A DNA stretch of 64,000 nucleotides from Pseudomonadota bacterium. GTDB lineage: Bacteria > Bdellovibrionota_C > UBA2361 > OMII01. Made by a program: the position numbers and the translations under genes. Under the pieces are notes generated by a model. The model had not been told where the DNA came from. It saw only the letters and a list, made by a program, of their open reading frames with translations, and made no database searches. Of this stretch, positions 11,123-53,950 are shown piece after piece. The DNA lies in assembly GCA_041178185.1 (NCBI GenBank), contig JBEGVS010000005.1, positions 14,103 through 78,102 on the forward strand, in the 5' to 3' direction. Positions within the stretch are counted from its first letter, which is position 1, and each line of letters opens with the position of its first letter.

Positions 11123-11134
11123 CTAAAAGGTATC

Positions 11135-13300
11135 ATGGCTCGAAACTATAAACGCACCGACTACCAAGCGCTCCGTCGAGAGGAGCTTCGGCGCGCCCTT
11201 GTTTCAAGCGGATTGGTATCGGCAGGGGTATTCGGTGCGGCGCTCTCTCCACTCCTTGCCAACCTGCCTCCAGCAGGGCTCATGGGACTTGGATTTCTCC
11301 CCGCTGCCGTACTCGGATCTGCCGCCTACACCTTCGCCAAGCAGCACTCTATTGAGCGAGCTCGTAAGCAGGAGTCCATCTTACGAGGGGGTAGGGAGGT
11401 GTTGGGGATGCCACCGGAACGAGATTGCTTCGGCAAAGCCCTTGAGGATGCTCGTAAGTCCGGAAAGAAGGTCCTTGATCGCTACTTGGTCGGATTCGAG
11501 CTCGACTCAGGTAAACCGCTGTGGGTTGATGACGACGAGATCTGCACACACGCGGCGGTGTTCGCAAAAACCGGCGTCGGAAAGACGCTCTGGCTAGAGT
11601 CCCTCATCTTTCAACAGATGGCGCGGGGACGTGCGAGCGGATGCACCTTCATCGACGCGAAGAGAGATTCAGCGACCCTCGCTCACATCATCTTGATGGC
11701 GCTCATCACGGGACGGATCGAGGACCTCGTAATCGTAGACCCATTTGACAGCGTTCATGCATACAACTTCGTCATGACAAATCAACGAGCCGACGTTAAG
11801 GCTCGTAAGGTGCTGCGTGCGGGGCTGCCTCCGACCTCTGACCAGAGCACCACCAAGCACTACGATCGACTCGCAGCGGACTCCATATATCGAATGGTTC
11901 GAGCCATGGAGAGCTTTGGGCTCGCCTGGTCGATACGTGATATCGCAGTTGCACTTTCTGCCTTTCAGCTTGCATATCCCCATCTCCGAAACATGCTCAA
12001 CAAGATCGGGGCTCGTCAGGCGATGGTCGAGCTTGGACACCTGGCGTCGAGCTACCGCAGCGTCAAGGGAGTGCTCGATACCGCTCGCATCACCGACAAC
12101 CTCCGGGGTATCGCTTCAGAGCTCCACGCGATATCTGGTAGCCAAGCTGGAGAGGTGTTCTGCACCAAGCACACCGATCTCGTGCTCACCGATGCGATCG
12201 TACGAGGGAAGATTATTTACTATATGCTTCCGCGGTTGGAAGAAGCTGAGAGCGCTGCCCGCATGGTGAAGGTTTTCCGCGAGGACCTTGAGGTCTCGAT
12301 CGGCGAGATAACATCCTCGCGGATTCACAATCTTGAGGACCCTCATCTGGTGATCATCGACGAGGGTTCCTCTACCTTTGGTCCAACTTGGGCAAACCTC
12401 TTTGAGCTCGCGCGCCGTGGTCGCTTCGCGCTCCTCTTCGGTGCTCAGTCGACGGGCGGGCTCACCGATGCCGCGATGGGGCTTAGCGAGGCGTTCTACG
12501 AGCGCGTCATGGCCAACGTTAATCTCAAGGTGATGATGCGAATCGGGGATAACCGAACCGCAGCTGACATGACCGAATGGTTTGGAAAGATCGCCTCCAC
12601 CAAGAAGTCTGTTGGAGCTGGCATCACCACCGGTATCCAAACGTCGCTACTCAAAGGATCCCTCGACCTGAATTCTCGCAGAACGGGTGGTGAATCTCAG
12701 TCGGTAAGCTACCAAGAAGCTGAAGAGGATCTCGTCAGCGCCGAGGAGCTCAAGCATGAGATGTCGGCGGAGAAGGGTTTGGCGTGGTTCGATCTCGGAA
12801 ATGGAAAGATCGTGAAAGGGCGCTCATTCTGGTTTAATGCCAACCTCCCGGAGACGTGGGAGGGGCGGGAGTTTATCGTTCATCCAGAGAAATTTGAGGT
12901 CGATGAGATCGGGCTCTCCGATTGGGTCGATGAGCAGATCCTCTCTCAGGAGCAGGACGAAACATCACAAAACTTCGCTCCTAAGGCGAAACCTGCGCCC
13001 GACCCTCAGGTGCCCCAACCGGACAAAAAAGGTACCGCTACCCAAAAGACTGTCACCGCTCCCGCCTCAGAACCCGTGCCTGATGGACCGTTCAGGCTCG
13101 GAGCGATCCCTAAGGGGGGAAGGCCGCGTGGCAGCGTTATGACCCTCAGCAGGCCAACCCCTCCACCTACAAAAGTGGTCGTAACGCAGGGCGCGCGCGT
13201 AGACCAGCGAGGAAAGGGGGGAGCAACGACCAATGAAAAGGGCCAACCGCCCGATAGCCCCAAAGGCCCGAAGACAGGTCCTTTCAAATTCAGAAAATAA
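11135..13300 (+). CDS. type IV coupling protein (TraD/VirD4/TraG-family ATPase), 721 aa, with a disordered Pro/Lys-rich C-terminal tail
   Basis: ATG at 11135 with an aaaagg RBS. Two N-terminal TM helices. Walker A AVFAKTGVGKT and Walker B HLVIIDEGSS. The last ~170 aa (QDETSQNFAPKAKPAPDPQVPQPDKKGTATQKT...PKGPKTGPFKFRK) are low-complexity. Confidence 0.8.
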   Translation: MARNYKRTDYQALRREELRRALVSSGLVSAGVFGAALSPLLANLPPAGLMGLGFLPAAVLGSAAYTFAKQHSIERARKQESILRGGREVLGMPPERDCFGKALEDARKSGKKVLDRYLVGFELDSGKPLWVDDDEICTHAAVFAKTGVGKTLWLESLIFQQMARGRASGCTFIDAKRDSATLAHIILMALITGRIEDLVIVDPFDSVHAYNFVMTNQRADVKARKVLRAGLPPTSDQSTTKHYDRLAADSIYRMVRAMESFGLAWSIRDIAVALSAFQLAYPHLRNMLNKIGARQAMVELGHLASSYRSVKGVLDTARITDNLRGIASELHAISGSQAGEVFCTKHTDLVLTDAIVRGKIIYYMLPRLEEAESAARMVKVFREDLEVSIGEITSSRIHNLEDPHLVIIDEGSSTFGPTWANLFELARRGRFALLFGAQSTGGLTDAAMGLSEAFYERVMANVNLKVMMRIGDNRTAADMTEWFGKIASTKKSVGAGITTGIQTSLLKGSLDLNSRRTGGESQSVSYQEAEEDLVSAEELKHEMSAEKGLAWFDLGNGKIVKGRSFWFNANLPETWEGREFIVHPEKFEVDEIGLSDWVDEQILSQEQDETSQNFAPKAKPAPDPQVPQPDKKGTATQKTVTAPASEPVPDGPFRLGAIPKGGRPRGSVMTLSRPTPPPTKVVVTQGARVDQRGKGGATTNEKGQPPDSPKGPKTGPFKFRK

Positions 13301-43978: not shown

Positions 43979-44676
43979 TTAAGACCCTGAAAAGCATATA
44001 GAATTTTGGCCCAATGATCAACCGAGGGCAACAGGTGAGGGTTCTCGCATGGGACCACACTCAAACGCCCCCGTCCACATCACCGTCCCATACCACCGAG
44101 CGGTAGCACAACGGTCAGGAAACGAACAGATAACGACAGCTGTACGGGGTGGTAACTTTCTCGGCGTGGATGAAAATAATCCTTGACCTTCATGATCCCC
44201 AAGGATTATTCTCCGGCTCCGGTTTTGCTCAGGGTTTAGCCTTTGTAGGTTAACAGCCCGTTGAAGCGGGAACCTCATTCGATACTAGCTCAGCAGTTAA
44301 GAAGCCACGCAGCGCCCTCCGTTGAAGAACAGAAAGGGACCGGGCTTTTGTTCTGTTGAGTCAGGGTTGGAGGGTTCAGAAGTGATACGAACACTTGAGA
44401 GTCGTGCCACTGAAGTGCGGTATACGCCCCGTAGAAAACGTTCTGTTACATATAATAGGTCACCTCGTTAAGGTGCCCCTCCCCTCTAAATTCAGTGTAG
44501 CTCACTGAGCCAAAAAGGAGCGTGACGGTAGTCATGGAGGAAGATCGGCGCGGTTGGTTTTATCTGGGGTCTGGATGTACGGACAACGGATGGTGTTCTG
44601 ACTGAAGAGCTTGACGGAAATGATTTCGTCGCAAGCTTCGGTCAGAGATGAATAACTTTTTGATGGGACAACAATC

Positions 44677-44967
44677 ATGAAATTCTGGTCAAATTCTGAT
44701 GTTCCGACCTCTGGTGCTGCGATTCCCGAACTGCGATTACTTGCAGCGGTTCTTCAACGGGCGATCCATGATTTCATCGGTGGTGAGGGAGATGTTCGTG
44801 AAGGTGCTCGCTCATGGCTCATGGACGAAGAGCCGACCGACGCTCCACTTTCCTTCAAGTTTATTTGCGAGGCTCTTGACCTCGACAGCGAGAGCCTTCG
44901 AAAGGCTATCGGGCGACAAGCTGAAGCGCAGCTTCGAGAGTTCGCCGCCAACGACGCTTTAGCGTAA
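44677..44967 (+). CDS. small putative HTH protein (sigma-70 region-4 / LuxR-like helix-turn-helix), paralogue A
   Basis: 96 aa. ARSWLMDEEPTDAPLSFKFICEALDLDSESLRKAI aligns with paralogue B at 47242..47604 (AFTWVMDTSAEEPFSFNGVCDALGISPEYLRLGL). The spacing resembles sigma region 4.2 (LSYEEIAEILGVSxGTVKSRL). Confidence 0.45.
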   Translation: MKFWSNSDVPTSGAAIPELRLLAAVLQRAIHDFIGGEGDVREGARSWLMDEEPTDAPLSFKFICEALDLDSESLRKAIGRQAEAQLREFAANDALA

Positions 44968-45266
44968 CGTCACCGTGATAGAGGGTCTCAACCTCTACGG
45001 TATCTTCCTAGACAATAAGGCTAGATCGTAGCGAGGGCGCGACGTGAGAGGGAATAAGTTCCCTGTCATATCGCGCCCTTAAGTTTTTGATACTTTCAGG
45101 TCTCGAGTAACCCGGGGTATACTCTCAGTAGGGCAGATAGATCTGATGAGACCCCAAATCTTCATCTTACCTATCGAAACCCTTGCACAATGTAGCTTCT
45201 CTGACAGGCGGGTGTGAAACATCATCCGACCAACGGGGTCGTGTTACAAAGGGATGGTGACGGCGC

Positions 45267-45542
45267 ATGAGCGATGGAGTAGCAAAGGGCAATAACCCCG
45301 TATTGTGGGAGAAGTTCTTGGCGGATCTCGATGAGAAGTTGCAGCTCGGTCTTCTCGATAGAATGCGCAGGGTCCAAGCCTACCACTTCGAGTCGGACAC
45401 CCTCTTCGTCGAACCCGGTTCAAAGGAGGACGAAGCCTACCTTAAAAAGAGCGCTCAATTTACCCAGCTTTGTCTTCTAGCACAGGACTCAACCGGGGTG
45501 ACCGAGGTCAAATTCAGACCGGCAGCTCCATCAGAAGAATAG
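45267..45542 (+). CDS. hypothetical small protein, weakly DnaA-N-terminal-domain-like
   Basis: NPVLWEKFLADLDEKLQLGLLDRMRRVQAYHFESDTLFVEPGSKEDEAYLKK loosely follows the DnaA_N pattern (LW..CL..L...L....F..WI.PL......L.L..PN.F). Weak. Confidence 0.3.
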   Translation: MSDGVAKGNNPVLWEKFLADLDEKLQLGLLDRMRRVQAYHFESDTLFVEPGSKEDEAYLKKSAQFTQLCLLAQDSTGVTEVKFRPAAPSEE

Positions 45543-45603
45543 CTCTTCGACGAAATTTCTTTGGACTCTTTCCTTCCGTCGCCGCTTTTGCGACCTTTGT
45601 GAC

Positions 45604-45822
45604 ATGGACACGCGGAAAAAAACGGGGAGCAAAGATTCGAAAGAGGTTACCCACTGCAAGATATGTGGGATCCCCCTTCCTCCCCCTCACGATCCCACCC
45701 GCTCCCCATTTTGCTCAGAGCGATGTCGCATGAACGACCTCTCGAAATGGTTTGGAGAGAACTACCGCATAGCGTCTCATCCGGTTCCACAATCACAGGG
45801 CGAAGAGGAGAGCGAGTCCTAA
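45604..45822 (+). CDS. yacG: DNA gyrase inhibitor YacG (zinc-ribbon)
   Basis: CKICGIPLPPP...RSPFCSERCRMNDLSKWFGENYRI matches YacG (CPxC...PFCSxRCxxIDLGxWxxExxxI). Acidic C-terminal tail. Confidence 0.65.
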   Translation: MDTRKKTGSKDSKEVTHCKICGIPLPPPHDPTRSPFCSERCRMNDLSKWFGENYRIASHPVPQSQGEEESES

Positions 45823-45833
45823 ATAAAAGAGGG

Positions 45834-47021
45834 CTAACGAGGATCGCTGACCAACCCGACAAACAACGGCGCCCGAGAGGGACGGTGAACGAGCGCAAAC
45901 ACGAACGGCCGATCAACCTTCACCTCTTTCGGTTCCGGAGTGTGTGGCATAAACGCCCCGCGGGTCATGGTGATCGCCGTAGCTGCGGCGGCCTCGGTCC
46001 CCTCTTCGTCTACAGAGACGACCGCCTCATGGAGGATCTGCCCGATCCCACCGACCCCACGCGCCGATATCCCCGAGTAGTCACCACCCTGAAAATCGCC
46101 AAGACCGTATGCAGAAAGTTGAGAGAGAAGTTCGGTACCAAAGCGCACCTTCAACCGGGGTAGCGACAACGTAACCTTCGCATAATCTATGTCCCCCAAC
46201 GCCTTGGTGAGCAGCTCAGACGAGAGCCCTTCGGCCACCTCTCCTACAGAGAGCCTCTTCTTGGGCACGAGTACTACGAAGGTAAAATCAAACCCCTGGT
46301 AGGGAAGTCGCACACCTTGCCATTCCCCATCTTCGAAGTAATCCATGTTCTCGGTTTTGTGCATCATCGCCACCTTGACCGGCGTGGCGGGATTGGTCCA
46401 AAACTCCCCCTCCTTCGTTGCCTTTTTCTCAAAATGGGTTAGCCAGGCGGCCTTAAAGTACAACGCGTTGACAAGGACGCAGGTAGTGAGCTCCGTTACC
46501 GAACCAGGGGGTAGCAGGCTCGGAATCAAGGCATTCGTCGCACTCGAAACCCACGTATTGATTTTGCCTCGAGCCGTGTCAGGGGGACTGAACGCGATGT
46601 TTCGGGGCTCAGACTCGAAGATTCGGGTGCTATCGGCGACGTAGCTCTTCTGAACATCATATCCGTTGGCGAGCCAAACCGAATTAGCGAGACGCGACGT
46701 GACGAACTCGCCGGAGCGAACAATCTGGGAATTCATGGTGGCGTAGACACCCTGGAGATCAGAGGCAAAGGGCGCCGGTAACAATTTCGTATCAAGAAGC
46801 GTCGCTGTCCTCCCACGAGCACCTAGTCGAAGGAGCATCAGGGCCGAGTGAATGCTGTACGGAGAGACGGTGATATTCGGCCCCCTCTTCGCCTCCTCTT
46901 TCAGGAGGAAGACACCGAGATCTAGCTGCTTACGAGCGATATCCCCCTCGGTAACTTGGGCGAGAGCCTGAGGGCCCGAGATAGACAAGATCAGCACGAA
47001 GATGCAAATGAAACGTTTCAT
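45834..47021 (-). CDS. secreted serpin (serine protease inhibitor), 395 aa
   Basis: ATG at 47021; signal peptide MKRFICIFVLILSISGPQALA. Serpin motifs: NALYFKAAWLTHF (breach/shutter), hinge EEGTEAAAATAITMT, reactive-centre-loop region, C-terminal DRPFVFALVH. Confidence 0.8.
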   Translation of the reverse strand: MKRFICIFVLILSISGPQALAQVTEGDIARKQLDLGVFLLKEEAKRGPNITVSPYSIHSALMLLRLGARGRTATLLDTKLLPAPFASDLQGVYATMNSQIVRSGEFVTSRLANSVWLANGYDVQKSYVADSTRIFESEPRNIAFSPPDTARGKINTWVSSATNALIPSLLPPGSVTELTTCVLVNALYFKAAWLTHFEKKATKEGEFWTNPATPVKVAMMHKTENMDYFEDGEWQGVRLPYQGFDFTFVVLVPKKRLSVGEVAEGLSSELLTKALGDIDYAKVTLSLPRLKVRFGTELLSQLSAYGLGDFQGGDYSGISARGVGGIGQILHEAVVSVDEEGTEAAAATAITMTRGAFMPHTPEPKEVKVDRPFVFALVHRPSRAPLFVGLVSDPR

Positions 47022-47241
47022 GGTGGTGACTACCTCGTTACGAAAGGGGGAAACCTAAGGTTTCCACCCAGCATGTTCGTACCAAAGAGTACCGTAAAGG
47101 GGGCTTCGCTCCTAGAGAAGACCACTCCTCACCCTTCGTGAACCTATTCCATGCCTTCTCCGGCTCTAGGAACACGACTCCGGGAGCGAGCGCTCGCCTT
47201 GGGTCCCACTGCGCCGCAGGTAGACCGCCCTAATGGGAGAC

Positions 47242-47604
47242 CTAGAAGTTACGGCGGGCCTTTCCTATCTCATGCAAAAGTGAGGTCGATGCGTTCATAA
47301 GCCCCAGTCGCAGATACTCGGGAGATATCCCTAACGCATCGCACACCCCATTGAAGGAGAAAGGCTCCTCGGCTGATGTATCCATTACCCACGTAAAAGC
47401 CTCGGCGTATCGAGCCTTTTCGGTAGGGGTACTTGCAACGGCATAGGCGATATACGCTTGGATGCCATCGAAGAGAAGAGCACCCAACAACGAACGTTCC
47501 GGACCGCGGGCGTAGCCGCGAGTGCTTTCGACGATCTCTTCGGTCACCGACCGAGCGAAATTCGATGGGGAAACTACCGAATTAAGGAACTCAGGGACTG
47601 ACAT
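47242..47604 (-). CDS. small putative HTH protein, paralogue B of 44677..44967
   Basis: 120 aa. Shares ~35 aligned positions with paralogue A (ERSLLGALL..I.AYI......E.AR....TWVMD....EPFSF..VCDALG.S.E.LR..L). Confidence 0.45.
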   Translation of the reverse strand: MSVPEFLNSVVSPSNFARSVTEEIVESTRGYARGPERSLLGALLFDGIQAYIAYAVASTPTEKARYAEAFTWVMDTSAEEPFSFNGVCDALGISPEYLRLGLMNASTSLLHEIGKARRNF

Positions 47605-47765
47605 ACAAGCCTCCGCAAAAACAACGTGCTTATAATTCGGATGCCGGAGACCCTCGTTCGGTGCTCGGAACGTATGAAAGGTTAGCTTCCCTGCTCAGGG
47701 GTTGTCATAAGGTGTGCAGAGGTGTCGGTTTTAGAATCCCAAGGGGGCGAACTACGGAGCGCTTC

Positions 47766-49649
47766 CTACAGGAAGATACAGAGCGCTATCACCGGGACCA
47801 AAGCTACCGGAATAAGCGGCGTAACGAATCCGGCGAACACCAGACACACCGATACAAAGGTAGCAAAAAGGAGCCAGGCTCGTGCCCTGAGCACCTCATG
47901 AACGTGCCGGCGGCACTCCTTGACGAGAGCGGGCACCAGATCGAGGTGAGAGCTTAACGCTACAACGGAAGCTGATGGGACCTCCAGTGTGTTGGGCTTA
48001 AGGAGGGCTATCTCTGGGGAGTGTGAGCGTCCGACCAGATCCGACTCGTCGCCACGAACCAACAACACATCCGCGGACAGCTCTCGTTCACCTTCATCAA
48101 TAATCCTTCCCGTGAGGTTCCGGGGCCATTTTAGAAGAGCTTCATCGGACAGGAGATCGGTCTGACCATAGGCAACTACAAACCGCGCGATCAGGTCATC
48201 TCCGATGGCTACAAGCACAACTCTCTCCTGAGCCCCCTCTTCGACCAAACTCTCGGTCGGCTGAATCAGAATCCCCCGATCAACGAGGAAATCCTCGGAC
48301 CCGATTGAGAACTCGATACCCTTGACCGTTCCACAAATGCCCCTGTCCTCATACTCATGAAGATCGATCACACGTTCGGTAACGACGCTACCTACAACCC
48401 GCTGGCAGTAATCACCGATCGTAGCAAGCGCGGGGTCTTCGGCACGACCAACGATAGAGGAGATGCACGAGCAGAGAGAGCTCTCGCTTATCCGGTCGTC
48501 CATCAAGGTAAGATCCTTCACGTGACACGCCGTTGACGACGCGAGCCTGGAGGGATCGTATGCAACGGTGCGAACATTGTAGAGCTCTGTCCACGCCTTG
48601 GCAGAATTAATGAGAAGTCCCCGCTGTGCCCACGCACGAACCAAGCGACTACGGGTGCCGTACAGAGCCTCTCCGAGTTGGAGCAACAAGGCAACGGTGA
48701 GGATCGAGCCACCTGCAAGGAGGATCGTAGCCCCACTCGCTCCCCGCTCATCCCAGAAGATAGCCGAGGAGACGAAACAGAAGAGCAGCACGTACACGAG
48801 GGGTGTCACAATATGGTCGTGGTCCCGCTTCAACGAGTCCTCAACCCACCGAAGTCCCGGCAGAACCGCCTGCTCCAGTCGTTTGAGGCACGAGTCATAC
48901 GAGGCTGTGAGGGCCTGGACGGTAGCCTCGCCACTGAGAACATAAGAACCCGCGAATACCACATCGGTCTCATCCTTGACCCGGAAATGGGTCTCTGGTG
49001 AGAGGTACCGCTCAAGAACAGCACACGTGCCAGCCCGCACGCGACAGTCGGTGGGAACTATGATACCGGCGGTGAGTGGGAACGCCTCTCCCTCTGCCAC
49101 CATCTTCGCGTCAGCCGGAAAATTCGGCACCAGCGAGGTCATCTGATCTGCCTGATCCCATACTCGGGCTATCAGCGCACGGACGAGGAGAACAGCCCCA
49201 ACGGTAAGAGCTGGGCCTCCAAGAAGCGCAGCACCTATCGACTCCTGCCCACCTCCGGGCACAAACGCTGCCATGAGTGCGGCGAAGCTGACGAGGAGCG
49301 CTCCCGTTGCCGGTACGAAGGTAAGGGGTGAATAGCGCCGCCCAGAATTCTTGAGGAGGAATGCGAGCTCTCGGGCGATGATCGCGGTTGCGATCAGGCC
49401 GCCCACTCCACATGCAGTCCTGAGGCTATCACGCCCCAAACCCGCGGACTCGAGACCGAAGCCGATCAGGCCGACGCCCACCAGGGCGGTGCCGAGACCG
49501 AGTCGTCTCCACAGCGGTTCAGGGGAAAAATGTTCTGGAGAATGGGGAGGAGGTGAGGATGTGTCGATGGGGTTCGTTGATGAAGTGACAGCTGCGGTAT
49601 GACCCGCAGCCGCGTCGATTGCTCCCGTGCTCTCAGCCGGTAGACTCAT
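47766..49649 (-). CDS. P1B-type (heavy-metal) P-type ATPase homologue with degenerate catalytic motifs (probable non-catalytic/pseudo-ATPase membrane protein), 627 aa
   Basis: ATG at 49649. N-terminal TM helices. The actuator-domain region IIVPTDCRVRAGTCAVLERYLSPETHFRVKDETDVVFAGSYVLSGEATVQALTAS parallels GD.V.V.PGE.IPVDG.V..G.S.VDESMLTGES.PV.K..GD.V..GT.N..G. However TGES is replaced by SPET, CPC by AGGSILT, DKTGT by DPSRL and GDGxND by GDDLIAR. Two C-terminal TM helices. Confidence 0.5.
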   Translation of the reverse strand: MSLPAESTGAIDAAAGHTAAVTSSTNPIDTSSPPPHSPEHFSPEPLWRRLGLGTALVGVGLIGFGLESAGLGRDSLRTACGVGGLIATAIIARELAFLLKNSGRRYSPLTFVPATGALLVSFAALMAAFVPGGGQESIGAALLGGPALTVGAVLLVRALIARVWDQADQMTSLVPNFPADAKMVAEGEAFPLTAGIIVPTDCRVRAGTCAVLERYLSPETHFRVKDETDVVFAGSYVLSGEATVQALTASYDSCLKRLEQAVLPGLRWVEDSLKRDHDHIVTPLVYVLLFCFVSSAIFWDERGASGATILLAGGSILTVALLLQLGEALYGTRSRLVRAWAQRGLLINSAKAWTELYNVRTVAYDPSRLASSTACHVKDLTLMDDRISESSLCSCISSIVGRAEDPALATIGDYCQRVVGSVVTERVIDLHEYEDRGICGTVKGIEFSIGSEDFLVDRGILIQPTESLVEEGAQERVVLVAIGDDLIARFVVAYGQTDLLSDEALLKWPRNLTGRIIDEGERELSADVLLVRGDESDLVGRSHSPEIALLKPNTLEVPSASVVALSSHLDLVPALVKECRRHVHEVLRARAWLLFATFVSVCLVFAGFVTPLIPVALVPVIALCIFL

Positions 49650-49688
49650 GCAACGACCTCCTCAAAGGAAGTTAGCCCTACAGGGGAA

Positions 49689-49913
49689 TTACTCGCTCTT
49701 AGCCTCAGCTGAAGCGGCGGCAACGTACTTCTTCTTAAGCTTCGAAAGCTTCTTGTCTTCGAAAACAACGTGCTTTCGAGCAACTGGATCGTACTTGCGA
49801 ATCTTGAGCTTGTTCTCGCCCTTACCCTTCTTCTTGTTCTTACGGTTGGTGTAGAAGAAGCCGGTGCCTTCTGACGAAACTAAGAAAAAGGTTTCTTTTG
49901 CGGCCTTAGCCAT
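49689..49913 (-). CDS. rpmG: 50S ribosomal protein L33 with a ~20-aa C-terminal extension
   Basis: [56 protein letters not shown] matches L33 ([28 protein letters not shown]...[20 protein letters not shown]). The extra [17 protein letters not shown] tail is unusual. Confidence 0.7.
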
Positions 49914-50272
49914 AATAAATCCTCACAACTAGAGCTTCCTCAAAGGCAGACCCAGAAAAAGGGTGTCGGGACGGAAGCACTCCCAAGCCCCTGGTTTGTA
50001 GCCTAAAACGGGGTACGTTTCAACCCAAGCGTGCGATTTCGTAGCGAGATGTTTGATGCTGAGGGTTGCGCGACCATAGGCACAACGGGGCGCAACAGAA
50101 GAGACACTGGCTGCGTATGCTGTCAGATCCGTTGAGGAATTTAGCGCGGACACCCCCACAGCAGCAATCCCAGCATCCACATACCTCCCACCGGAGCCCG
50201 TTTTTCACCTTATGTTACGTACACCAGGGCCCCTGCCTTTTGTGCATAGGGAGGCAGTGAGCCGCAGCCTCT

Positions 50273-51472
50273 CTATGAGCGGGGTCCCACAACGACCGAT
50301 ACGGAATTACCACCAAATCCGGCTGTATTGATGAGCACGACCCGAGTCGCTCCCTCACGGCGGGCCCGTATCGGGGTCTCATAGGGGAATCCGCTCCAAC
50401 GAGCACCCTGAATGAGCGCCTGGGCGAACGCCAAACTAACCATACCGGAGGCACCGTAGGTGTGGCCCGTGAGATGTTTCGTTGAGGCCACCGTGATCTG
50501 GTCGGAGAAGACTCGGGAAACGGCGCTCAATTCCGCCTCATCTCCTTTCAAAGACCCAGGGGCATGCACCACGACCGTATCGACGATCACCCCCTCGGGC
50601 ATCGCAGCGAGAGCCATCCGCATCGAGCGCTCGAAGGCCCGTCCATCTGGGGAGAGTCCAGTTGCTGTCGGGGTCTCCTCGACGGCCCATCCGAGCCCGA
50701 GCAGCGCGAGATCTCCCTCCACCTCGGCTCCATCATCAGCCATAACGAGGGCCGTCCCCGCACCCTCTCCCAGGGCGACCGTGTTGGATGAGACCGCGAG
50801 ACTTCCACACGGCCGACACGGCCACGGAGTCGCGCCATCGGAGTAGAGTCGAAGCGCCTCGAGGTGCGCGATAGTGTACGGCGTCAAACACGCTTCGGCT
50901 CCACCGAAGAGAGCAACAGTGCTCATTCCGCTCCGAACAAAAGCGCAGGCCGTCAACAGGGATTGAAACGCGGAGGAGCAGGTCATCGAGGTTCCGATGC
51001 TCACAACCGAACCCCGCTCCCCTCTCGCACCGAGCCGAGAGACGCACTCTTGAGCGACCCACGAAGAGATAGTGCCTGCGGTAGTTGTCGGCGATGTTTC
51101 AGTCGGAACCTTGGAGGGATCTCCCGTGAAATCGCCGATCGTTCTCTCGAGGGCGTGCGTAGCACCGCGCGAGGAACCGATCGTCACGCATCCGATAGCG
51201 AAATGCCGACCCCGAGCTGCATCCAACGTATCCCGTGCAGCTGCTATCGCGAGATGGGCAACCCTATCGAGCCTGCTGTAGCGCTCCTCCTGAGCGACCG
51301 CTCTCACGAGCTCCTCACCACGCTGCGACAAGGGGAATATCGGTCGGTTTCCTCGTTCAGCGCACGGCACAGCGGAGAGCGAGGGCTCCTCAAGAAATTC
51401 CGCGATATCCTCCCGCGATGTGCCGAGAGGAGAGATGGTGGAGAGCCCTCGCAGGATCAAACGTCTATCCAT
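50273..51472 (-). CDS. beta-ketoacyl-ACP synthase (FabF/FabB-like KAS I/II fold)
   Basis: The ORF runs to 51478 (TTG); ATG at 51472 gives MDRRLILRGLSTISPLG. Active-site Cys region GTSMTCSSAF, His motifs VVHAPGS and HLTGHTYGASG, C-terminal NTAGFGGNSVSVVVG. Confidence 0.75.
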   Translation of the reverse strand: MDRRLILRGLSTISPLGTSREDIAEFLEEPSLSAVPCAERGNRPIFPLSQRGEELVRAVAQEERYSRLDRVAHLAIAAARDTLDAARGRHFAIGCVTIGSSRGATHALERTIGDFTGDPSKVPTETSPTTTAGTISSWVAQECVSRLGARGERGSVVSIGTSMTCSSAFQSLLTACAFVRSGMSTVALFGGAEACLTPYTIAHLEALRLYSDGATPWPCRPCGSLAVSSNTVALGEGAGTALVMADDGAEVEGDLALLGLGWAVEETPTATGLSPDGRAFERSMRMALAAMPEGVIVDTVVVHAPGSLKGDEAELSAVSRVFSDQITVASTKHLTGHTYGASGMVSLAFAQALIQGARWSGFPYETPIRARREGATRVVLINTAGFGGNSVSVVVGPRS

Positions 51473-52607
51473 GCACAACCTCCTTGGGAAGACTCTCCGC
51501 GATAAGTCCGAGACAGAAGCGCACCTCTTCTACCGTATTGAATGAATGGAGGCAGAGCCTAATCCGCTCAGAGCCGGCGGGAACGGTTGGAGAGCGGATT
51601 GCCTTGGCGAAGACCCCCGCACTTTGAAGAGCAGCTTCGACCATGAGCACCCGCTCATTTGAGGGGAGAACTACACCTTGAATCGGGGAGGTCGATTCAA
51701 GAAAGGAGAGCGATGAAAACTCACCTCGCAAAGCTCGAACACTCTCTATGAGAAAGCGCACGGCATCCCGCTCTGCACAGGCGTCCGCCATCAAGCGATA
51801 GGCTCGATCGATATAGCGAAGCGTTACGAGATCGGGAGCTGTCGAATAAATGAAAGGACGAGCGAAATTTATCAGGTACTCACGCAACATCTCACTACCT
51901 AAGACGATGGCGCCGCGATACCCGACCGCTTTGCCAAAGGTATGTACCCTTGCAAAGATGCGGGACTGAAGACCGAGGCTTTGAACCAACCCCTCCCCTC
52001 GCTTTCCGTAGATACCCGTTGCATGCGCCTCATCAACGATAAGATACGCGCCGTGCTCATCGCACAACGAACACAGCTCTTTGAGTGGAGAGAGGTCCCC
52101 ATCCATCGAGTAGAGGGACTCCACCGCTATAAAGAGATCTCCTCGGGCTTGCGCTATTTTGTTGCGCAGATCTTCCAGGTCATTGTGACGGAAGGAGTAT
52201 GAGCGCGCAGCACTTAAACGAATGCCATCGCGCATCGACGCATGGACTAACTCATCGTATATGATCGTGTCGTGGCGTGTCCCAATACTGCTGAGGACAC
52301 CTACATTCGCTTCATAGCCTGAGCCGAAGAGCAGGGCTGCGGGCGCATCGTGAAACTCCGCTAAAAAGCTCTCAAGGTCCTCGTGCGCTCGTGTCGTCCC
52401 GCTCACCAACCGGGAACCGGTCGCTCCCATAACGCCGAACTCAGCCACCGGTCCCAACTGGGTCGATGCGAGCTGCCGGGAGAGGCCAAGGTAATCATTT
52501 GAGCAGAGGTCGATTCCCCCGGCTACAACGGTCAGGCGACGCAACGACCCCGCCTCGCGTCGATCGCGCAACGCATCCTCCATGCTTTTCGGACTTCTCG
52601 GGTTCAT
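51465..52607 (-). CDS. alpha-oxoamine synthase, 8-amino-7-oxononanoate synthase (BioF)-like PLP enzyme
   Basis: ATG at 52607. CSNDYLGLS, GSGYEANVG, IVDEAHATG, and the PLP lysine in HTFGKAVG. Overlaps the KAS gene start by 8 nt. Confidence 0.7.
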   Translation of the reverse strand: MNPRSPKSMEDALRDRREAGSLRRLTVVAGGIDLCSNDYLGLSRQLASTQLGPVAEFGVMGATGSRLVSGTTRAHEDLESFLAEFHDAPAALLFGSGYEANVGVLSSIGTRHDTIIYDELVHASMRDGIRLSAARSYSFRHNDLEDLRNKIAQARGDLFIAVESLYSMDGDLSPLKELCSLCDEHGAYLIVDEAHATGIYGKRGEGLVQSLGLQSRIFARVHTFGKAVGYRGAIVLGSEMLREYLINFARPFIYSTAPDLVTLRYIDRAYRLMADACAERDAVRFLIESVRALRGEFSSLSFLESTSPIQGVVLPSNERVLMVEAALQSAGVFAKAIRSPTVPAGSERIRLCLHSFNTVEEVRFCLGLIAESLPKEVVHG

Positions 52608-52687
52608 ATACGTTGCCAGCCTCTTGAGCGGATTGTATGGTAGCAGAACTCACGAGAGATACAAAAAGGTATAAACACTGGGTAATT

Positions 52688-53950
52688 ATGAACGTTTTTG
52701 AAGAACTGACGTGGCGCGGACTCATCCAGGACATCTCCGATCCTGAGGCTCTCTCGAAACTCAAAACGGGCGACGCTTTCTATATCGGGTTTGATCCTAC
52801 AGCTCCCTCTTTTCAGGTGGGAAACCTCGTTCCCCTCTTGGTAGCTATCCATCTTACGAAAGCGGGCCTCAAACCGATCCTTCTCTTCGGCGGCGCGACC
52901 GGCATGATCGGCGACCCAGGCGGGAAGAGCGCTGAGCGAAACCTCCTTCCACTTGAACAGGTAGCGGAGAACGTCAAACTCCAACAGACCCAAGCTGCCG
53001 ACCTATGGAGGAGCGCAGGCCTCACGGTCATCCCCGAGATCGTCAATAATATCGAGTGGACGAAAGATGTCTCCATGCTCACCTTCCTTCGAGATGTAGG
53101 TAAACACTTTACCATCAACTACATGCTCGCGAAGGAGTCCGTAAAATCACGCCTCTCTGGAGACGGCATCTCCTACACTGAGTTCAGCTACCAGCTCCTG
53201 CAGGCGTTCGACTTTCTTCATCTCTACCAAAACAGGAACTGCAAGCTCCAGATAGGTGGCTCCGACCAGTGGGGGAACATAACCTCTGGACTTGAATTAA
53301 TCCGCCGCAAGGTACAGGGCGAGGCGTACGCGCTCTCGTTTCCTCTGATCACCAACAGTGAGGGGAAGAAGTTCGGCAAATCTGAGGGTAACGCGGTATG
53401 GCTCAGTCCAAAGTTGACCACCCCGTACAAGTTCCATCAGTTCTGGCTTAACGTTCAGGACGCCGAGGCGATTCGACTCCTTAAGATCTTCACCCTTGAA
53501 TCGAAAGAGAAGATCGAAGAGATCGAAGCGCTCATGAAGGCAGCTCCTGAGAAACGGGATGCTCAAAAGTTCCTTGCTGACACCATCTGCACATTTGTGC
53601 ATGGGGCGGAAGCTACCTCCGACGCTAAGAAGTGCGCACAGGCGCTCTTTAGCGGCACGCTCTCCGAACTCTCTAACGAGCAGATCCTAGAGATTTTCGA
53701 TGACGCTCCTTCAAGCGCTCTCACGCGTTCGCAAGTTGAGGAGCTCGACATCCTAACCCTTCTGAGCACCACGGTTTCAAAATCGAAGGGCGAGGCTCGC
53801 CGACTTGTGCAGGCAGGCGGTATCTACCTCGACAGTGAGCGAGTATCGAACGAGGCTCTTAAGCTCAAAGATACCGCCATCCTCTCGAAAGGTTTCATCG
53901 TTCTTCGAAGCGGCAAGAAGAACTACCACCTTGTACGCCTCGCTGACTAA
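52688..53950 (+). CDS. tyrS: tyrosyl-tRNA synthetase (class I, with C-terminal S4 domain)
   Basis: The ORF opens at 52637; the ATG at 52688 gives MNVFEELTWRGLIQDIS. HIGH-type motif region YIGFDPTAPSFQVGNL and KMSKS-type KFGKSEGN. C-terminal S4-like KGEARRLVQAGGIYLD. Confidence 0.85.
   Translation: MNVFEELTWRGLIQDISDPEALSKLKTGDAFYIGFDPTAPSFQVGNLVPLLVAIHLTKAGLKPILLFGGATGMIGDPGGKSAERNLLPLEQVAENVKLQQTQAADLWRSAGLTVIPEIVNNIEWTKDVSMLTFLRDVGKHFTINYMLAKESVKSRLSGDGISYTEFSYQLLQAFDFLHLYQNRNCKLQIGGSDQWGNITSGLELIRRKVQGEAYALSFPLITNSEGKKFGKSEGNAVWLSPKLTTPYKFHQFWLNVQDAEAIRLLKIFTLESKEKIEEIEALMKAAPEKRDAQKFLADTICTFVHGAEATSDAKKCAQALFSGTLSELSNEQILEIFDDAPSSALTRSQVEELDILTLLSTTVSKSKGEARRLVQAGGIYLDSERVSNEALKLKDTAILSKGFIVLRSGKKNYHLVRLAD

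What the first reader, a model, noticed from the sequence alone, without database searches (positions are those of the whole stretch)
47766..49649. P1B-type ATPase homologue with every catalytic signature degenerate
The overall architecture (N-terminal TM helices, actuator-like domain, TM pair, P/N-domain-like region, C-terminal TM pair) and the actuator-region similarity indicate descent from a heavy-metal P-type ATPase. However TGES is replaced by SPET, the metal-binding CPC by AGGSILT, the phosphorylation site DKTGT by DPSRL, and GDGxND by GDDLIAR. It has a 50-aa disordered N-terminus and no HMA/CxxC domain. This suggests a non-pumping, possibly regulatory or structural pseudo-ATPase.
Basis: partly seen in the sequence, partly recalled or inferred. 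Interest (0 to 1): 0.55.

Follow-up and report, generated by a model that had tools for sequence, protein, structure and literature searches.

The report
Conserved dead copper-pump homologue
This gene encodes a full-length relative of bacterial heavy-metal pumps that has lost every residue needed to bind metal or use ATP, yet uncultured Bdellovibrionota keep it under strong selection at a fixed place next to a ribosomal protein gene, so it looks like a repurposed "pseudo-pump" whose new job is unknown.

Summary
The ORF is real (47766-49649, minus strand, 627 aa) and descends from a P1B-type ATPase: PF00122 scores above its cut-off, hhalign gives 99.8-100% against real pumps, and the AlphaFold model matches ZntA, CopA and ATP7B over the full length. 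The canonical motifs are gone. TGE is SPET, CPC is LLL, DKTGT is DPSRL, the N-domain His is Asp, the TGD unit is deleted, and the M5 YN and M6 MxxSS ligands are lost. CPC aligns to L321-L323, not AGGSILT. GDDLIAR is not the GDGxND counterpart; the best candidate for that is V531-RGDES, with invariant R532 at the Mg-binding Asp.

It is not a decaying pseudogene. There are 47 full-length relatives, dN/dS is about 0.04-0.09, and the family has its own invariant motifs. It is one clade of a much larger set (about 140 clusters at 50% identity) of equally degenerate proteins. In every locus checked the order is rpmG, then this gene, then a ~120-aa helical protein, and all loci come from uncultured Bdellovibrionota-type MAGs. 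Conservation is highest in the cytoplasmic A and N domains and lowest in the membrane helices.

Best reading: a non-catalytic, membrane-anchored binding or regulatory module. The function is inferred. I found no published description.

The parts
47766..49649 (-). Whole gene: 627-aa P1B-ATPase-like protein lacking all catalytic and metal-binding motifs
   Evidence: ORF; PF00122; hhalign against real P1B pumps at 99.8-100%; AlphaFold2 model with pLDDT 80 and pTM 0.75; Foldseek top hits ZntA, CopA, ATP7B, HMA4 and CadA at E=6e-20 to 7e-17
49521..49649 (-). Residues 1-43: disordered N-terminus with no HMA/CxxC. The first ~10 residues (MSLPAESTG) are conserved among close relatives and the rest is variable
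   Evidence: pLDDT<50 for residues 1-43; alignment A1; no PF00403 hit; no CxxC
49143..49520 (-). Residues 44-169: four N-terminal TM helices (MA, MB, M1, M2 of the P1B topology)
   Evidence: Helices 44-69, 73-100, 108-129 and 136-169; aligned to the same helices of AfCopA and real pumps
48891..49142 (-). Residues 170-253: actuator (A) domain. It is one of the two best-conserved parts. The superfamily motif is v-E213-R214-[RK]
   Evidence: PF00122 match over residues 180-320; beta strands 189-246; mean conservation 0.43
48990..49001 (-). S217-P-E-T220, at the position of the TGE(S/P) dephosphorylation loop. E219 aligns with the catalytic Glu but is not conserved in the family (SPE, SPD, STD, NPL, TTV, SSV)
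   Evidence: alignments; family columns
48624..48890 (-). Residues 254-342: M3 and M4. M4 is predicted as one unbroken helix. The periplasmic M3-M4 loop carries the clade-specific motif I297-FWDER
   Evidence: Helices 254-301 and 306-342; I297 and W299 invariant
48681..48689 (-). L321-L322-L323, at the position of the CPC metal-binding motif of M4. Both the helix-breaking Pro and the two Cys are lost. The next residue, Q324, is Arg or Lys in about 41% of the superfamily
48543..48557 (-). D365-P-S-R-L369, at the position of DKTGT. D365 and S367 are invariant in the close family. Across the superfamily the position is D in 60 and E in 15 of 104 sequences
48240..48533 (-). Residues 373-470: nucleotide-binding-like (N) domain, the most conserved region. 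SEHP is replaced by A403-E-D-P406 (His to Asp). The Gly residues (G437, G440, G450) are kept. Superfamily-specific near-invariant residues absent from real pumps are D384, R386, E452 and R458-G459
   Evidence: alignment; invariant residues; mean conservation 0.44
48183..48203 (-). G483-DDLIAR489: the strand homologous to 'G.D..L.G..AV.D' that precedes DPxK/R in real pumps. The DPxK position is G495-Q496
48039..48065 (-). L529-LVRGDESD537: the best candidate for the counterpart of 'MVGDGINDA'. Invariant R532 sits at the first (Mg-binding) Asp, G533 at Gly, E535 at Asn and S536 at Asp. A deletion of about 35 residues just upstream removes the TGD unit
   Evidence: hhalign of superfamily profile A2 against real pumps A3. 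The alternative alignment places GDGxND in a gap. Invariant residues
47772..47936 (-). Residues 572-626: M5 and M6. The Cu(I)-pump ligand motifs YN (M5) and MxxSS (M6) are replaced by A596-T597 and V618..I621-A622
   Evidence: Helices 572-605 and 612-626; column comparison with real pumps
49689..49913 (-). rpmG (ribosomal protein L33, 74 aa), 39 nt upstream on the same strand. There is no terminator-like site between the two genes, and GAGGAGG lies before the ATPase-like start, so they are probably co-transcribed
   Evidence: Conserved block; PF00471 at 38.1 bits against a cut-off of 25; sequence; terminator scan; same arrangement in L023, L024 and L026
47242..47604 (-). Conserved 120-aa all-helical protein of unknown function. 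It lies downstream of the ATPase-like gene in all 19 loci whose DNA extends far enough, directly downstream in all but L026
   Evidence: Synteny; family of 481 clusters; model with pLDDT 80; no fold match; no family hit

Best explanation
The gene encodes a pseudo-pump: a stand-alone membrane protein that descends from a Cu(I)-type P1B ATPase and keeps its complete fold (8 TM helices plus A, P and N domains), but can no longer run the ATP-driven transport cycle.

Shown by the alignments:
- The metal ligands of M4, M5 and M6 and the helix-breaking Pro of M4 are gone.
- The adenine-binding His and Glu of the N domain are gone.
- Only the Asp of DKTGT survives.
- The TGD unit is deleted.
- The GDGxND Asp is replaced, probably by the invariant R532.
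- The TGE Glu is not conserved.

Also shown:
- The gene is kept under strong purifying selection as a lineage-wide gene of uncultured Bdellovibrionota-type bacteria.
- It sits at a fixed position directly downstream of rpmG and upstream of a ~120-aa helical protein.
- Constraint is concentrated on the cytoplasmic A and N domains, with new near-invariant charged residues (D384, R386, E452, R458) around the former nucleotide pocket.
- The membrane helices are the least constrained part.

Inferred mechanism: the 8-TM bundle now serves mainly as a membrane anchor. The remodelled A/N headpiece acts as a binding module, for a small ligand or for a protein partner such as the co-located 120-aa protein, and so works as a scaffold, sensor or regulator and not as a transporter. 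Transcription is coupled to a ribosomal-protein gene. In the window's clade, the invariant D365 may be held in a salt bridge by R532, which occupies the Mg2+ site and would fix the P domain in one state (inferred, not tested).

My confidence by step: non-catalytic and under selection, about 0.85. Cytoplasmic binding or regulatory module, about 0.4. The 120-aa protein as the partner, about 0.2.
For: Homology and fold:
- Searches show the homology.
- One search gives pLDDT 80 and one search matches ZntA, CopA and ATP7B across the full length.

Motif loss:
- Searches give the aligned positions, and one search finds no intact motif anywhere in the protein.
- PF00702 is not detected even at E<=10.
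- TIGR01525 scores 63.6 bits against a cut-off of 346.

Selection:
- 47 full-length relatives at 35-100% identity.
- 55 invariant columns, including family-specific motifs.
- dN/dS of 0.04-0.09 among the close orthologues.

Superfamily:
- 517 representatives at E<=1e-10.
- Of the best 150, only 6 have canonical motifs, and these score 93 bits or less.
- Superfamily-wide residues D384, R386, E452, R458-G459 and R214 are absent from real pumps.
- Mean conservation is A 0.43 and N 0.44, against 0.25-0.31 for the TM helices.

Synteny:
- The order rpmG, this gene, ~120-aa gene holds in 22 loci of close relatives and in 5 loci of relatives at 25-31% identity.
- The rpmG gap is 39 nt, with no terminator-like site between the two genes.
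Against: - No biochemical data exist, so loss of activity is inferred from motif loss.
- D365 and S367 are invariant in the close family and the N-domain Gly loops are retained, so some nucleotide or phosphate chemistry cannot be excluded.
- The two profile alignments disagree on the GDGxND counterpart.
- The partner hypothesis rests on gene adjacency only, and the 120-aa protein has no recognisable fold or family.
- dS is saturated (1.4-3.3), so the dN/dS values are approximate.
- The TM region, although the least conserved, still has clade-specific conserved positions (E94, G116, P146, the W299-x-E-R loop, P611). These could mean a membrane-side function.
Confidence: 0.6

Rival explanations
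1. It is still an active ATP-driven pump that uses very divergent motifs. D365 would be phosphorylated, S367 would stand in for Thr, and E535/D537 would bind Mg2+. The substrate would be something other than a soft metal.
For: D365 and S367 are invariant in 27 relatives, and E535, S536 and (nearly) D537 are conserved. The Gly loops of the N domain (G437, G440, G450) are kept. All domains and all 8 TM helices are retained.
Against: The Lys, Gly and second Thr of DKTGT are lost. The TGD unit is deleted, and no counterpart of the conserved P-domain Lys of real pumps (the K of 'LLPExK' in A3) is identifiable, while the first Asp of GDGxND is Arg or deleted. The adenine-binding His is Asp and the upstream Glu position is Val/Leu. 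The TGE Glu varies within the family. The M4 Pro found in all real pumps compared here is missing, and M4 is predicted as an unbroken helix. In positional orthologues the Asp itself is often E, H, W or absent. PF00702 is undetectable.
Confidence: 0.06
2. It is a decaying pseudogene or an annotation artefact of a former copA/zntA gene.
For: All catalytic signatures are lost. The gene evolves much faster than its neighbours: 25-31% identity at the distance where TyrRS is 55% and L33 is 70-74%.
Against: The 627-codon frame is intact here and in 47 or more relatives of the same length. dN/dS is 0.04-0.09. There are 55 invariant columns and new family-specific motifs. The AlphaFold model is confident. 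The syntenic position is fixed across deep divergence.
Confidence: 0.01
3. It is a passive, ATP-independent channel or facilitator, or a periplasm-facing receptor, in which the TM bundle is the functional part and the headpiece is a gate or a relic.
For: The 8-TM bundle is retained in every member. Clade-specific conserved TM and loop positions exist: E94, G116, P146 and the periplasmic W299-x-E-R loop. About 41% of the superfamily has Arg or Lys next to the former CPC site, reminiscent of built-in charges in other P-type ATPases (from general knowledge).
Against: The TM helices are the least conserved region (0.25-0.31 against 0.43-0.44 for A and N). No polar TM residue is conserved superfamily-wide. 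The periplasmic loop motif is limited to the window's clade.
Confidence: 0.12
4. It is a regulatory pseudo-paralogue that pairs with an active P1B pump encoded elsewhere in the same genome, as many pseudoenzymes regulate their active relatives.
For: This is a general pattern among pseudoenzymes (background knowledge). Full retention of the pump fold would suit heterodimerisation.
Against: No active P-type ATPase is encoded in the 64-kb window or in any of the 27 loci examined. The conserved neighbours are rpmG and small orphan proteins, not metal-homeostasis genes. Whether these genomes encode an active P1B pump at all could not be checked here.
Confidence: 0.1

Closest known systems
Cu(I)- and Zn(II)-exporting P1B-type ATPases (LpCopA 3rfu/4bbj, AfCopA 7r0g, ZntA 4umw, ATP7B)
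   Same: They share a common ancestor and the same overall fold and topology: MA, MB and M1-M6, with A, P and N domains in the same order. Structural residues of the A domain are shared (P.DG..G, the E of 'DES', aG[ST]..G), as are the Gly loops of the N domain. The nearest active relatives found carry CPC, YN and MxxSS, so they are the Cu(I) type.
   Different: The protein has no HMA domain, no CPC/YN/MxxSS ligands, no Pro in M4, no TGE, no DKTGT beyond the Asp, no HP His, no TGD and no GDGxND. About 35 residues of the P domain are deleted. It has new invariant residues (D384, R386, E452, R458, R532). Its genomic context is a ribosomal-protein gene, not metal-homeostasis genes.
Degenerate P4-ATPase modules of alveolate guanylate-cyclase chimeras (P4GC of Cryptosporidium, P4GC-beta, gregarines, Tetrahymena)
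   Same: A P-type ATPase module is retained and structurally conserved although the DKTGT and actuator motifs are altered or lost (PMC13466520). It is thought to serve a sensing or regulatory role within a signalling protein (PMC6592433).
   Different: Those are eukaryotic, derive from P4 lipid flippases, and are fused to a cyclase output domain. In Plasmodium GC-alpha the Asp is still required (PMC7858053). The protein here is bacterial, derives from a P1B pump, stands alone with no fused output domain, and has lost far more motifs.
Transporter-like non-transporting sensors (for example UhpC in E. coli, Snf3/Rgt2 and Ssy1 in yeast). This comparison is from general knowledge and was not tested here
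   Same: The concept is the same: a full-length transporter homologue kept under selection after losing transport, and used as a receptor or regulator.
   Different: Those are secondary carriers (MFS or APC folds) whose substrate-binding sites are largely retained. Here the substrate site itself is obliterated, and the conserved part is the cytoplasmic headpiece.

Membership tests
P-type ATPase superfamily (homology and fold) | Detectable sequence homology to the E1-E2 ATPase core (PF00122) and to solved P-type ATPases | tested here: met
   PF00122 at 44.3 bits against a cut-off of 28.1; 3rfu at E=1.6e-15 with the family profile; hhalign at 99.8-100%
P-type ATPase superfamily (homology and fold) | A, P and N cytoplasmic domains inserted between TM helices, in the P1B topology of 8 TM helices | tested here: met
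   Secondary-structure layout of the AlphaFold2 model; Foldseek full-length matches to ZntA, CopA, ATP7B, HMA4 and CadA at E=6e-20 to 7e-17
P-type ATPase (functional enzyme) | DKTGT phosphorylation motif | tested here: not met
   The aligned segment is D365-P-S-R-L and only the Asp is kept. No D[KR][TS]G occurs anywhere in the protein
P-type ATPase (functional enzyme) | TGE(S) dephosphorylation loop in the A domain | tested here: not met
   The aligned segment is S217-P-E-T. The Glu varies among relatives (D, L, V)
P-type ATPase (functional enzyme) | HAD-type P domain: TGD, the conserved Lys, and GDGxND for Mg2+ binding (PF00702) | tested here: not met
   No PF00702 hit at E<=10. The TGD unit lies in a deletion of about 35 residues. 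GDGxND aligns to V-R-G-D-E-S or to a gap
P-type ATPase (functional enzyme) | ATP hydrolysis with an aspartyl-phosphate intermediate | not testable with these tools
   This needs biochemistry, such as [gamma-32P]ATP labelling and a D365N control
P1B-1 Cu(I)-ATPase (CopA/ATP7 type) | Transmembrane metal ligands: CPC in M4, YN in M5 and MxxSS in M6 | tested here: not met
   The aligned residues are L321-L-L323, A596-T597 and V618..I621-A622, against CPC, YN and M..SS in five real pumps
P1B-1 Cu(I)-ATPase (CopA/ATP7 type) | N-terminal HMA (CxxC) metal-binding domain, present in most but not all members | tested here: not met
   No PF00403 hit, no CxxC, and residues 1-43 are disordered
P1B-1 Cu(I)-ATPase (CopA/ATP7 type) | SEHP(L) motif of the N domain, whose His binds adenine | tested here: not met
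   The aligned segment is A403-E-D-P406. The His is Asp and this change is conserved in the family
NCBIfam TIGR01525 heavy-metal translocating P-type ATPase | Score at or above the curated cut-off (346.25 bits) | tested here: not met
   63.6 bits
Pseudogene | Disrupted frame or neutral evolution (dN/dS near 1) | tested here: not met
   The frame is intact, dN/dS is 0.04-0.09, and there are 47 full-length relatives
Pseudoenzyme (conserved homologue of an enzyme that lacks its catalytic residues) | Clear homology to an enzyme family, loss of key catalytic residues, and retention under purifying selection | tested here: met
   Searches show the homology. Searches show the residue loss. Searches show the selection
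Pseudoenzyme (conserved homologue of an enzyme that lacks its catalytic residues) | Demonstrated absence of catalytic activity | not testable with these tools
   This needs an enzyme assay

The most novel reading that the evidence does not exclude
This would be the first stand-alone prokaryotic family of pseudo-P-type ATPases. An ancient Cu(I)-pump fold lost catalysis and transport before a whole uncultured Bdellovibrionota-type lineage diversified. It became a lineage-wide gene co-transcribed with ribosomal protein L33. Its remodelled nucleotide-binding and actuator domains now read out a new ligand or partner at the membrane, possibly together with the adjacent orphan 120-aa protein.
Probability: 0.4. 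Interest if true: 0.75.

Novelty: new variant of a known kind. Interest (0 to 1): 0.6.

Why it matters
P-type ATPases are among the best understood membrane enzymes, and their signature motifs are treated as universal. The 2023 review I checked (PMC10654040) describes no non-catalytic family. A large, old, selectively maintained family that keeps the entire pump fold while discarding every catalytic and substrate-binding residue would show that this fold can be repurposed, as kinase and protease folds have been. It would also give a natural experiment on which parts of the fold matter apart from catalysis. In practice, these proteins are currently annotated as 'cation transport ATPase' or 'HAD family hydrolase', which would inflate metal-resistance inferences from Bdellovibrionota MAGs. 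The fixed cluster of rpmG, the pseudo-pump and the small orphan proteins is also a marker of an uncultured lineage, and it points to unknown lineage-specific biology.

Tried and rejected
- AlphaFold-database fold search (afdb50), to find named carriers: the library was not available.
- Search of the 5.8-billion-protein database with the diverse superfamily alignment A2: it returned only the close family and then genuine pumps, because the word-index candidate list was swamped by real P1B ATPases. It gave no taxonomic information on the distant tier, though it did supply real pumps for the profile comparison.
- Functional leads from the adjacent 120-aa protein and its 96-aa paralogue: no Pfam, NCBIfam or PHROG hit. 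The only PDB sequence hit was a chance-level match to SMARCB1 at E=0.03. No fold match was found, the best being E=2.1.
- Rfam scan of 44000-53000 for a regulatory RNA near the gene: only a chance-level miRNA hit.
- Terminator and promoter scan: nothing informative between rpmG and the gene.
- Literature searches for a pseudo, inactive or degenerate P-type ATPase in bacteria or Bdellovibrionota: nothing relevant.
- The idea that rpmG linkage implies a zinc connection: rejected. This L33 contains no cysteine at all, so it cannot be a zinc-ribbon form (sequence), and there is no evidence for regulation by zinc.
- The model coordinates are not exposed, so the distance between D365 and R532 and the clustering of the new invariant residues could not be measured.
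- The better TM-scores against E1-state structures (0.48-0.53) than against E2P/E2.Pi structures (0.35-0.42) are noted, but I do not rely on them, because they compare an AlphaFold conformation.
Full report
**1. Observation**

The ORF 47766-49649 (minus strand) encodes 627 aa. It is the only open frame across the interval, with 1 stop against 12-33 stops in the other frames.

Homology to P-type ATPases is well beyond chance:
- Pfam PF00122 scores 44.3 bits against a gathering cut-off of 28.1, over residues 180-320.
- NCBIfam TIGR01525 (heavy-metal P-type ATPase) gives E=1.6e-17, but at only 63.6 bits against a cut-off of 346.
- Legionella CopA (3rfu) is hit at E=1.5e-7 by the single sequence and at 1.6e-15 by the family profile.
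- hhalign against 16 genuine P1B pumps gives 99.8% probability, E=7e-29, over 552 columns.

An AlphaFold2 model built on 27 relatives is confident (mean pLDDT 80, pTM 0.75).
- residues 1-43 disordered
- four TM helices
- a beta-rich actuator domain
- two long TM helices
- a P/N region
- two C-terminal TM helices

Foldseek against the PDB returns ZntA, AfCopA, LpCopA, ATP7B, HMA4 and CadA as top hits (E=6e-20 to 7e-17) over the full length, followed by KdpB and P2/P3 pumps.

**2. Motif by motif**

Three independent alignments agree on these positions:
- TGE(S/P) corresponds to S217-P-E-T220.
- CPC corresponds to L321-L322-L323.
- DKTGT corresponds to D365-P-S-R-L369.
- SEHP corresponds to A403-E-D-P406, so the adenine-binding His becomes Asp.
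- G483-DDLIAR489 corresponds to the strand 'G.D..L.G..AV.D' that precedes the DPxK/R position. It is not GDGxND.

For GDGxND the two profile alignments differ. The close-family profile puts it in a gap. The richer superfamily profile (100% probability, E=4e-58, 604 columns) aligns L529-LVRGDESD537 to 'MVGDGINDA', with invariant R532 at the first Asp. It also shows a deletion of about 35 residues that removes the TGD unit.

Column comparison with five intact Cu(I)-type pumps shows that YN (M5) and MxxSS (M6) are lost as well. A regex scan finds no intact DKTGT, TGE-loop, CPx, GDGxND, TGD, HP or CxxC anywhere in the protein. PF00702 and PF00403 are not detected.

One qualifier applies: the phospho-Asp itself is retained.

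**3. Not a pseudogene**

- The large protein database holds 47 clusters of full-length relatives (620-660 aa, 35-100% identity).
- The alignment has 55 invariant columns. These include D365, S367, L-D384-D-R386, G401-R-A403, E432, G437, G440, G450-x-E452, R489, Q496, R532-G-x-E-S536 and R588.
- dN/dS among the close orthologues is 0.04-0.09. dS is saturated, so these values are approximate.

**4. A much larger degenerate superfamily**

An exhaustive profile search of 1.84 billion representatives found 517 proteins at E<=1e-10.

Of the best 150, only six carry DKTGT, and five of those also have CPC and GDGIND. All six score 93 bits or less. Every other hit lacks the canonical motifs. These are about 140 clusters at 50% identity, and the full-length ones are 640-780 aa.

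These degenerate proteins share their own signature:
- 'v-E-R-[RK]' in the A domain
- often 'P-R', or a basic residue, where CPC was
- 'D-[YF]' or nothing at the DKTGT position
- 'Y..kG..G.v.G.eFS.G.E..L.eRGv' and 'YVA...E.vAR' in the N domain

Across 82-104 members the invariant or near-invariant residues that real pumps do not have are D384, R386, E452 and R458-G459; R214 is the majority residue (76%) at its position. Mean column conservation is highest in the A (0.43) and N (0.44) domains and lowest in the TM helices (0.25-0.31).

The window's family is the clade with the shortened P domain. The distant relative in L021 still gives a PF00702 hit.

**5. Genomic context**

The roughly 620-nt gap upstream contains an unlisted gene for ribosomal protein L33 (rpmG, 49689-49913, minus strand; PF00471 at 38 bits). 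It ends 39 nt before the start codon, with a GAGGAGG ribosome-binding site and no terminator-like site in between. A 120-aa ORF (47242-47604) follows downstream.

In 22 genome loci of close relatives, the flanking genes that each contig reaches stand in the same order as in the window: TyrRS (divergent), an AONS-like gene, a KAS-like gene, rpmG, this gene, the 120-aa gene, two further small ORFs and a class-V aminotransferase.

For relatives at only 25-31% identity, the core order rpmG, ATPase-like gene, ~116-120-aa gene is still in place (L023-L027). In L026 a 603-aa gene lies between the ATPase-like gene and the small gene. No L33 gene was called in L027, and L025 begins inside the ATPase-like gene. 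These proteins are therefore positional orthologues of one fast-evolving gene. At the distance where TyrRS is 55% identical and L33 is 70-74%, this protein is 25-31% identical over about half its length.

All sources are uncultured MAGs labelled Bdellovibrionota, Bdellovibrionales, Deltaproteobacteria, Pseudomonadota or 'Ca. Dadabacteria', and at least several are freshwater (Lake Mendota, Loclat). No cultured carrier was seen.

The 120-aa partner family has 481 clusters. It is confidently all-helical and matches no known fold or family.

**6. Mechanism**

The protein cannot run the Post-Albers cycle as known. It has no metal ligands, and M4 is an unbroken helix without the Pro. The adenine-binding His and Glu are gone. 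There is no Lys/Thr-Gly-Thr around the Asp, no TGD, no acidic GDGxND and no conserved TGE Glu.

Selection nevertheless preserves the whole fold and, above all, the cytoplasmic A and N domains, with new charged invariant residues near the old nucleotide pocket. The best-supported reading is a non-catalytic, membrane-anchored binding or regulatory module that is co-expressed with a ribosomal protein. The invariant pair D365 and R532 in this clade may be a salt bridge that replaces Mg2+ and phosphate.

The rivals are listed with their tests: a residual ATPase with exotic motifs, a passive channel or periplasmic receptor, and a regulator of an active paralogue. A decaying pseudogene is excluded.

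**7. Comparison with what is known, and novelty**

By descent the protein is a P1B (Cu(I)-type) ATPase. By every functional criterion tested, it fails membership of the enzyme family.

The nearest conceptual precedent is the P4-ATPase module of alveolate guanylate-cyclase chimeras, in which DKTGT is altered or lost in Cryptosporidium, P4GC-beta, gregarines and Tetrahymena (PMC13466520). Those are eukaryotic fusion proteins derived from flippases.

Literature searches and a recent broad review (PMC10654040) gave no description of a stand-alone bacterial dead-pump family. Public annotations call these proteins 'cation transport ATPase', 'HAD family hydrolase' or 'hypothetical protein'.

I rate it a new variant of a known kind, with interest 0.6. 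It is surprising for the P-type ATPase field and well supported as an evolutionary fact. Its function is unknown and its hosts are uncultured.

Noticed in passing
window 49689-49913 (-): An rpmG gene (ribosomal protein L33, 74 aa) lies in what looked like a 620-nt intergenic gap. At 74 aa it falls below the 80-aa ORF cut-off used. It contains no cysteine, so it cannot be a zinc-ribbon form, and it has a Lys/Ala-rich C-terminal extension of about 20 aa beyond the Pfam L33 match.
   Followed up: yes
window 49995-50035 (-), upstream of rpmG: A strongly conserved non-coding block (cttgggTTGAAAcg...17 nt...TACAAAccaggggcttggga...) is shared by window, L001, L002, L003, L007 and L005. By eye it looks like a promoter plus leader. 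The consensus scan did not call it, because the -10-like hexamer lacks the final T.
   Followed up: partly
window 47242-47604 (-) and window 44677-44967 (+): Two small orphan proteins (120 aa and 96 aa) are paralogues. They share a domain of about 70 aa, 'PE..LL.A.L...I......W....F.F..[VI]C[ED]AL......LR'. The 96-aa protein is very conserved, at 84-88% identity in loci where TyrRS is about 72%. Neither has a Pfam, NCBIfam or PHROG hit. The 120-aa one is all-helical with no fold match.
   Followed up: partly
window 45267-45542 (+): A third conserved small ORF (91 aa, 58-68% identity across loci) belongs to the same syntenic block and has no family assignment.
   Followed up: no
window 45834-47021 (-): A serpin (395 aa, PF00079 at E=3e-85) with a hydrophobic, signal-peptide-like N-terminus lies between the small ORFs and the 120-aa gene. 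It had no tblastn match in any of the related loci L001-L022, including those that span the equivalent interval (L009, L011-L014, L020), so it looks like a local insertion in this genome.
   Followed up: partly
window 50273-52607 (-): An AONS/BioF-like aminotransferase gene (380 aa) overlaps by 14 nt with a divergent beta-ketoacyl-synthase-like gene (401 aa, weak PF00109/PF02801 hits). The pair sits upstream of rpmG in the close relatives (L001-L020) but not in the distant loci L023-L027. It may be an amino-lipid or biotin-related condensing pair.
   Followed up: no
window 49622-49649 (-), residues 1-9 of the protein: The extreme N-terminus MSLPAESTG is almost invariant among relatives at 52-100% identity, although the next ~35 residues are variable and disordered. 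It could be a short linear motif, or a constraint on the translation-initiation region.
   Followed up: no
window 1353-4094 (-) and neighbours to about 8700: A 913-aa TraC/TraG-like P-loop protein (PF11130, PF19044) heads a run of same-strand ORFs, suggesting a conjugative or type-IV-secretion module at the start of the window.
   Followed up: no
window 9074-13300 (+): Two adjacent large ORFs (682 and 721 aa) have no Pfam match at E<=1e-5.
   Followed up: no
L021:116-1954 and L022:1589-3760: These distant positional orthologues keep a longer P domain. L021 still hits PF00702 and has 'SGD' where TGD would be, yet both are equally degenerate at DKTGT ('DYAFD' and 'FDGARC'). They look like intermediates between real pumps and the window's shortened clade.
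   Followed up: partly
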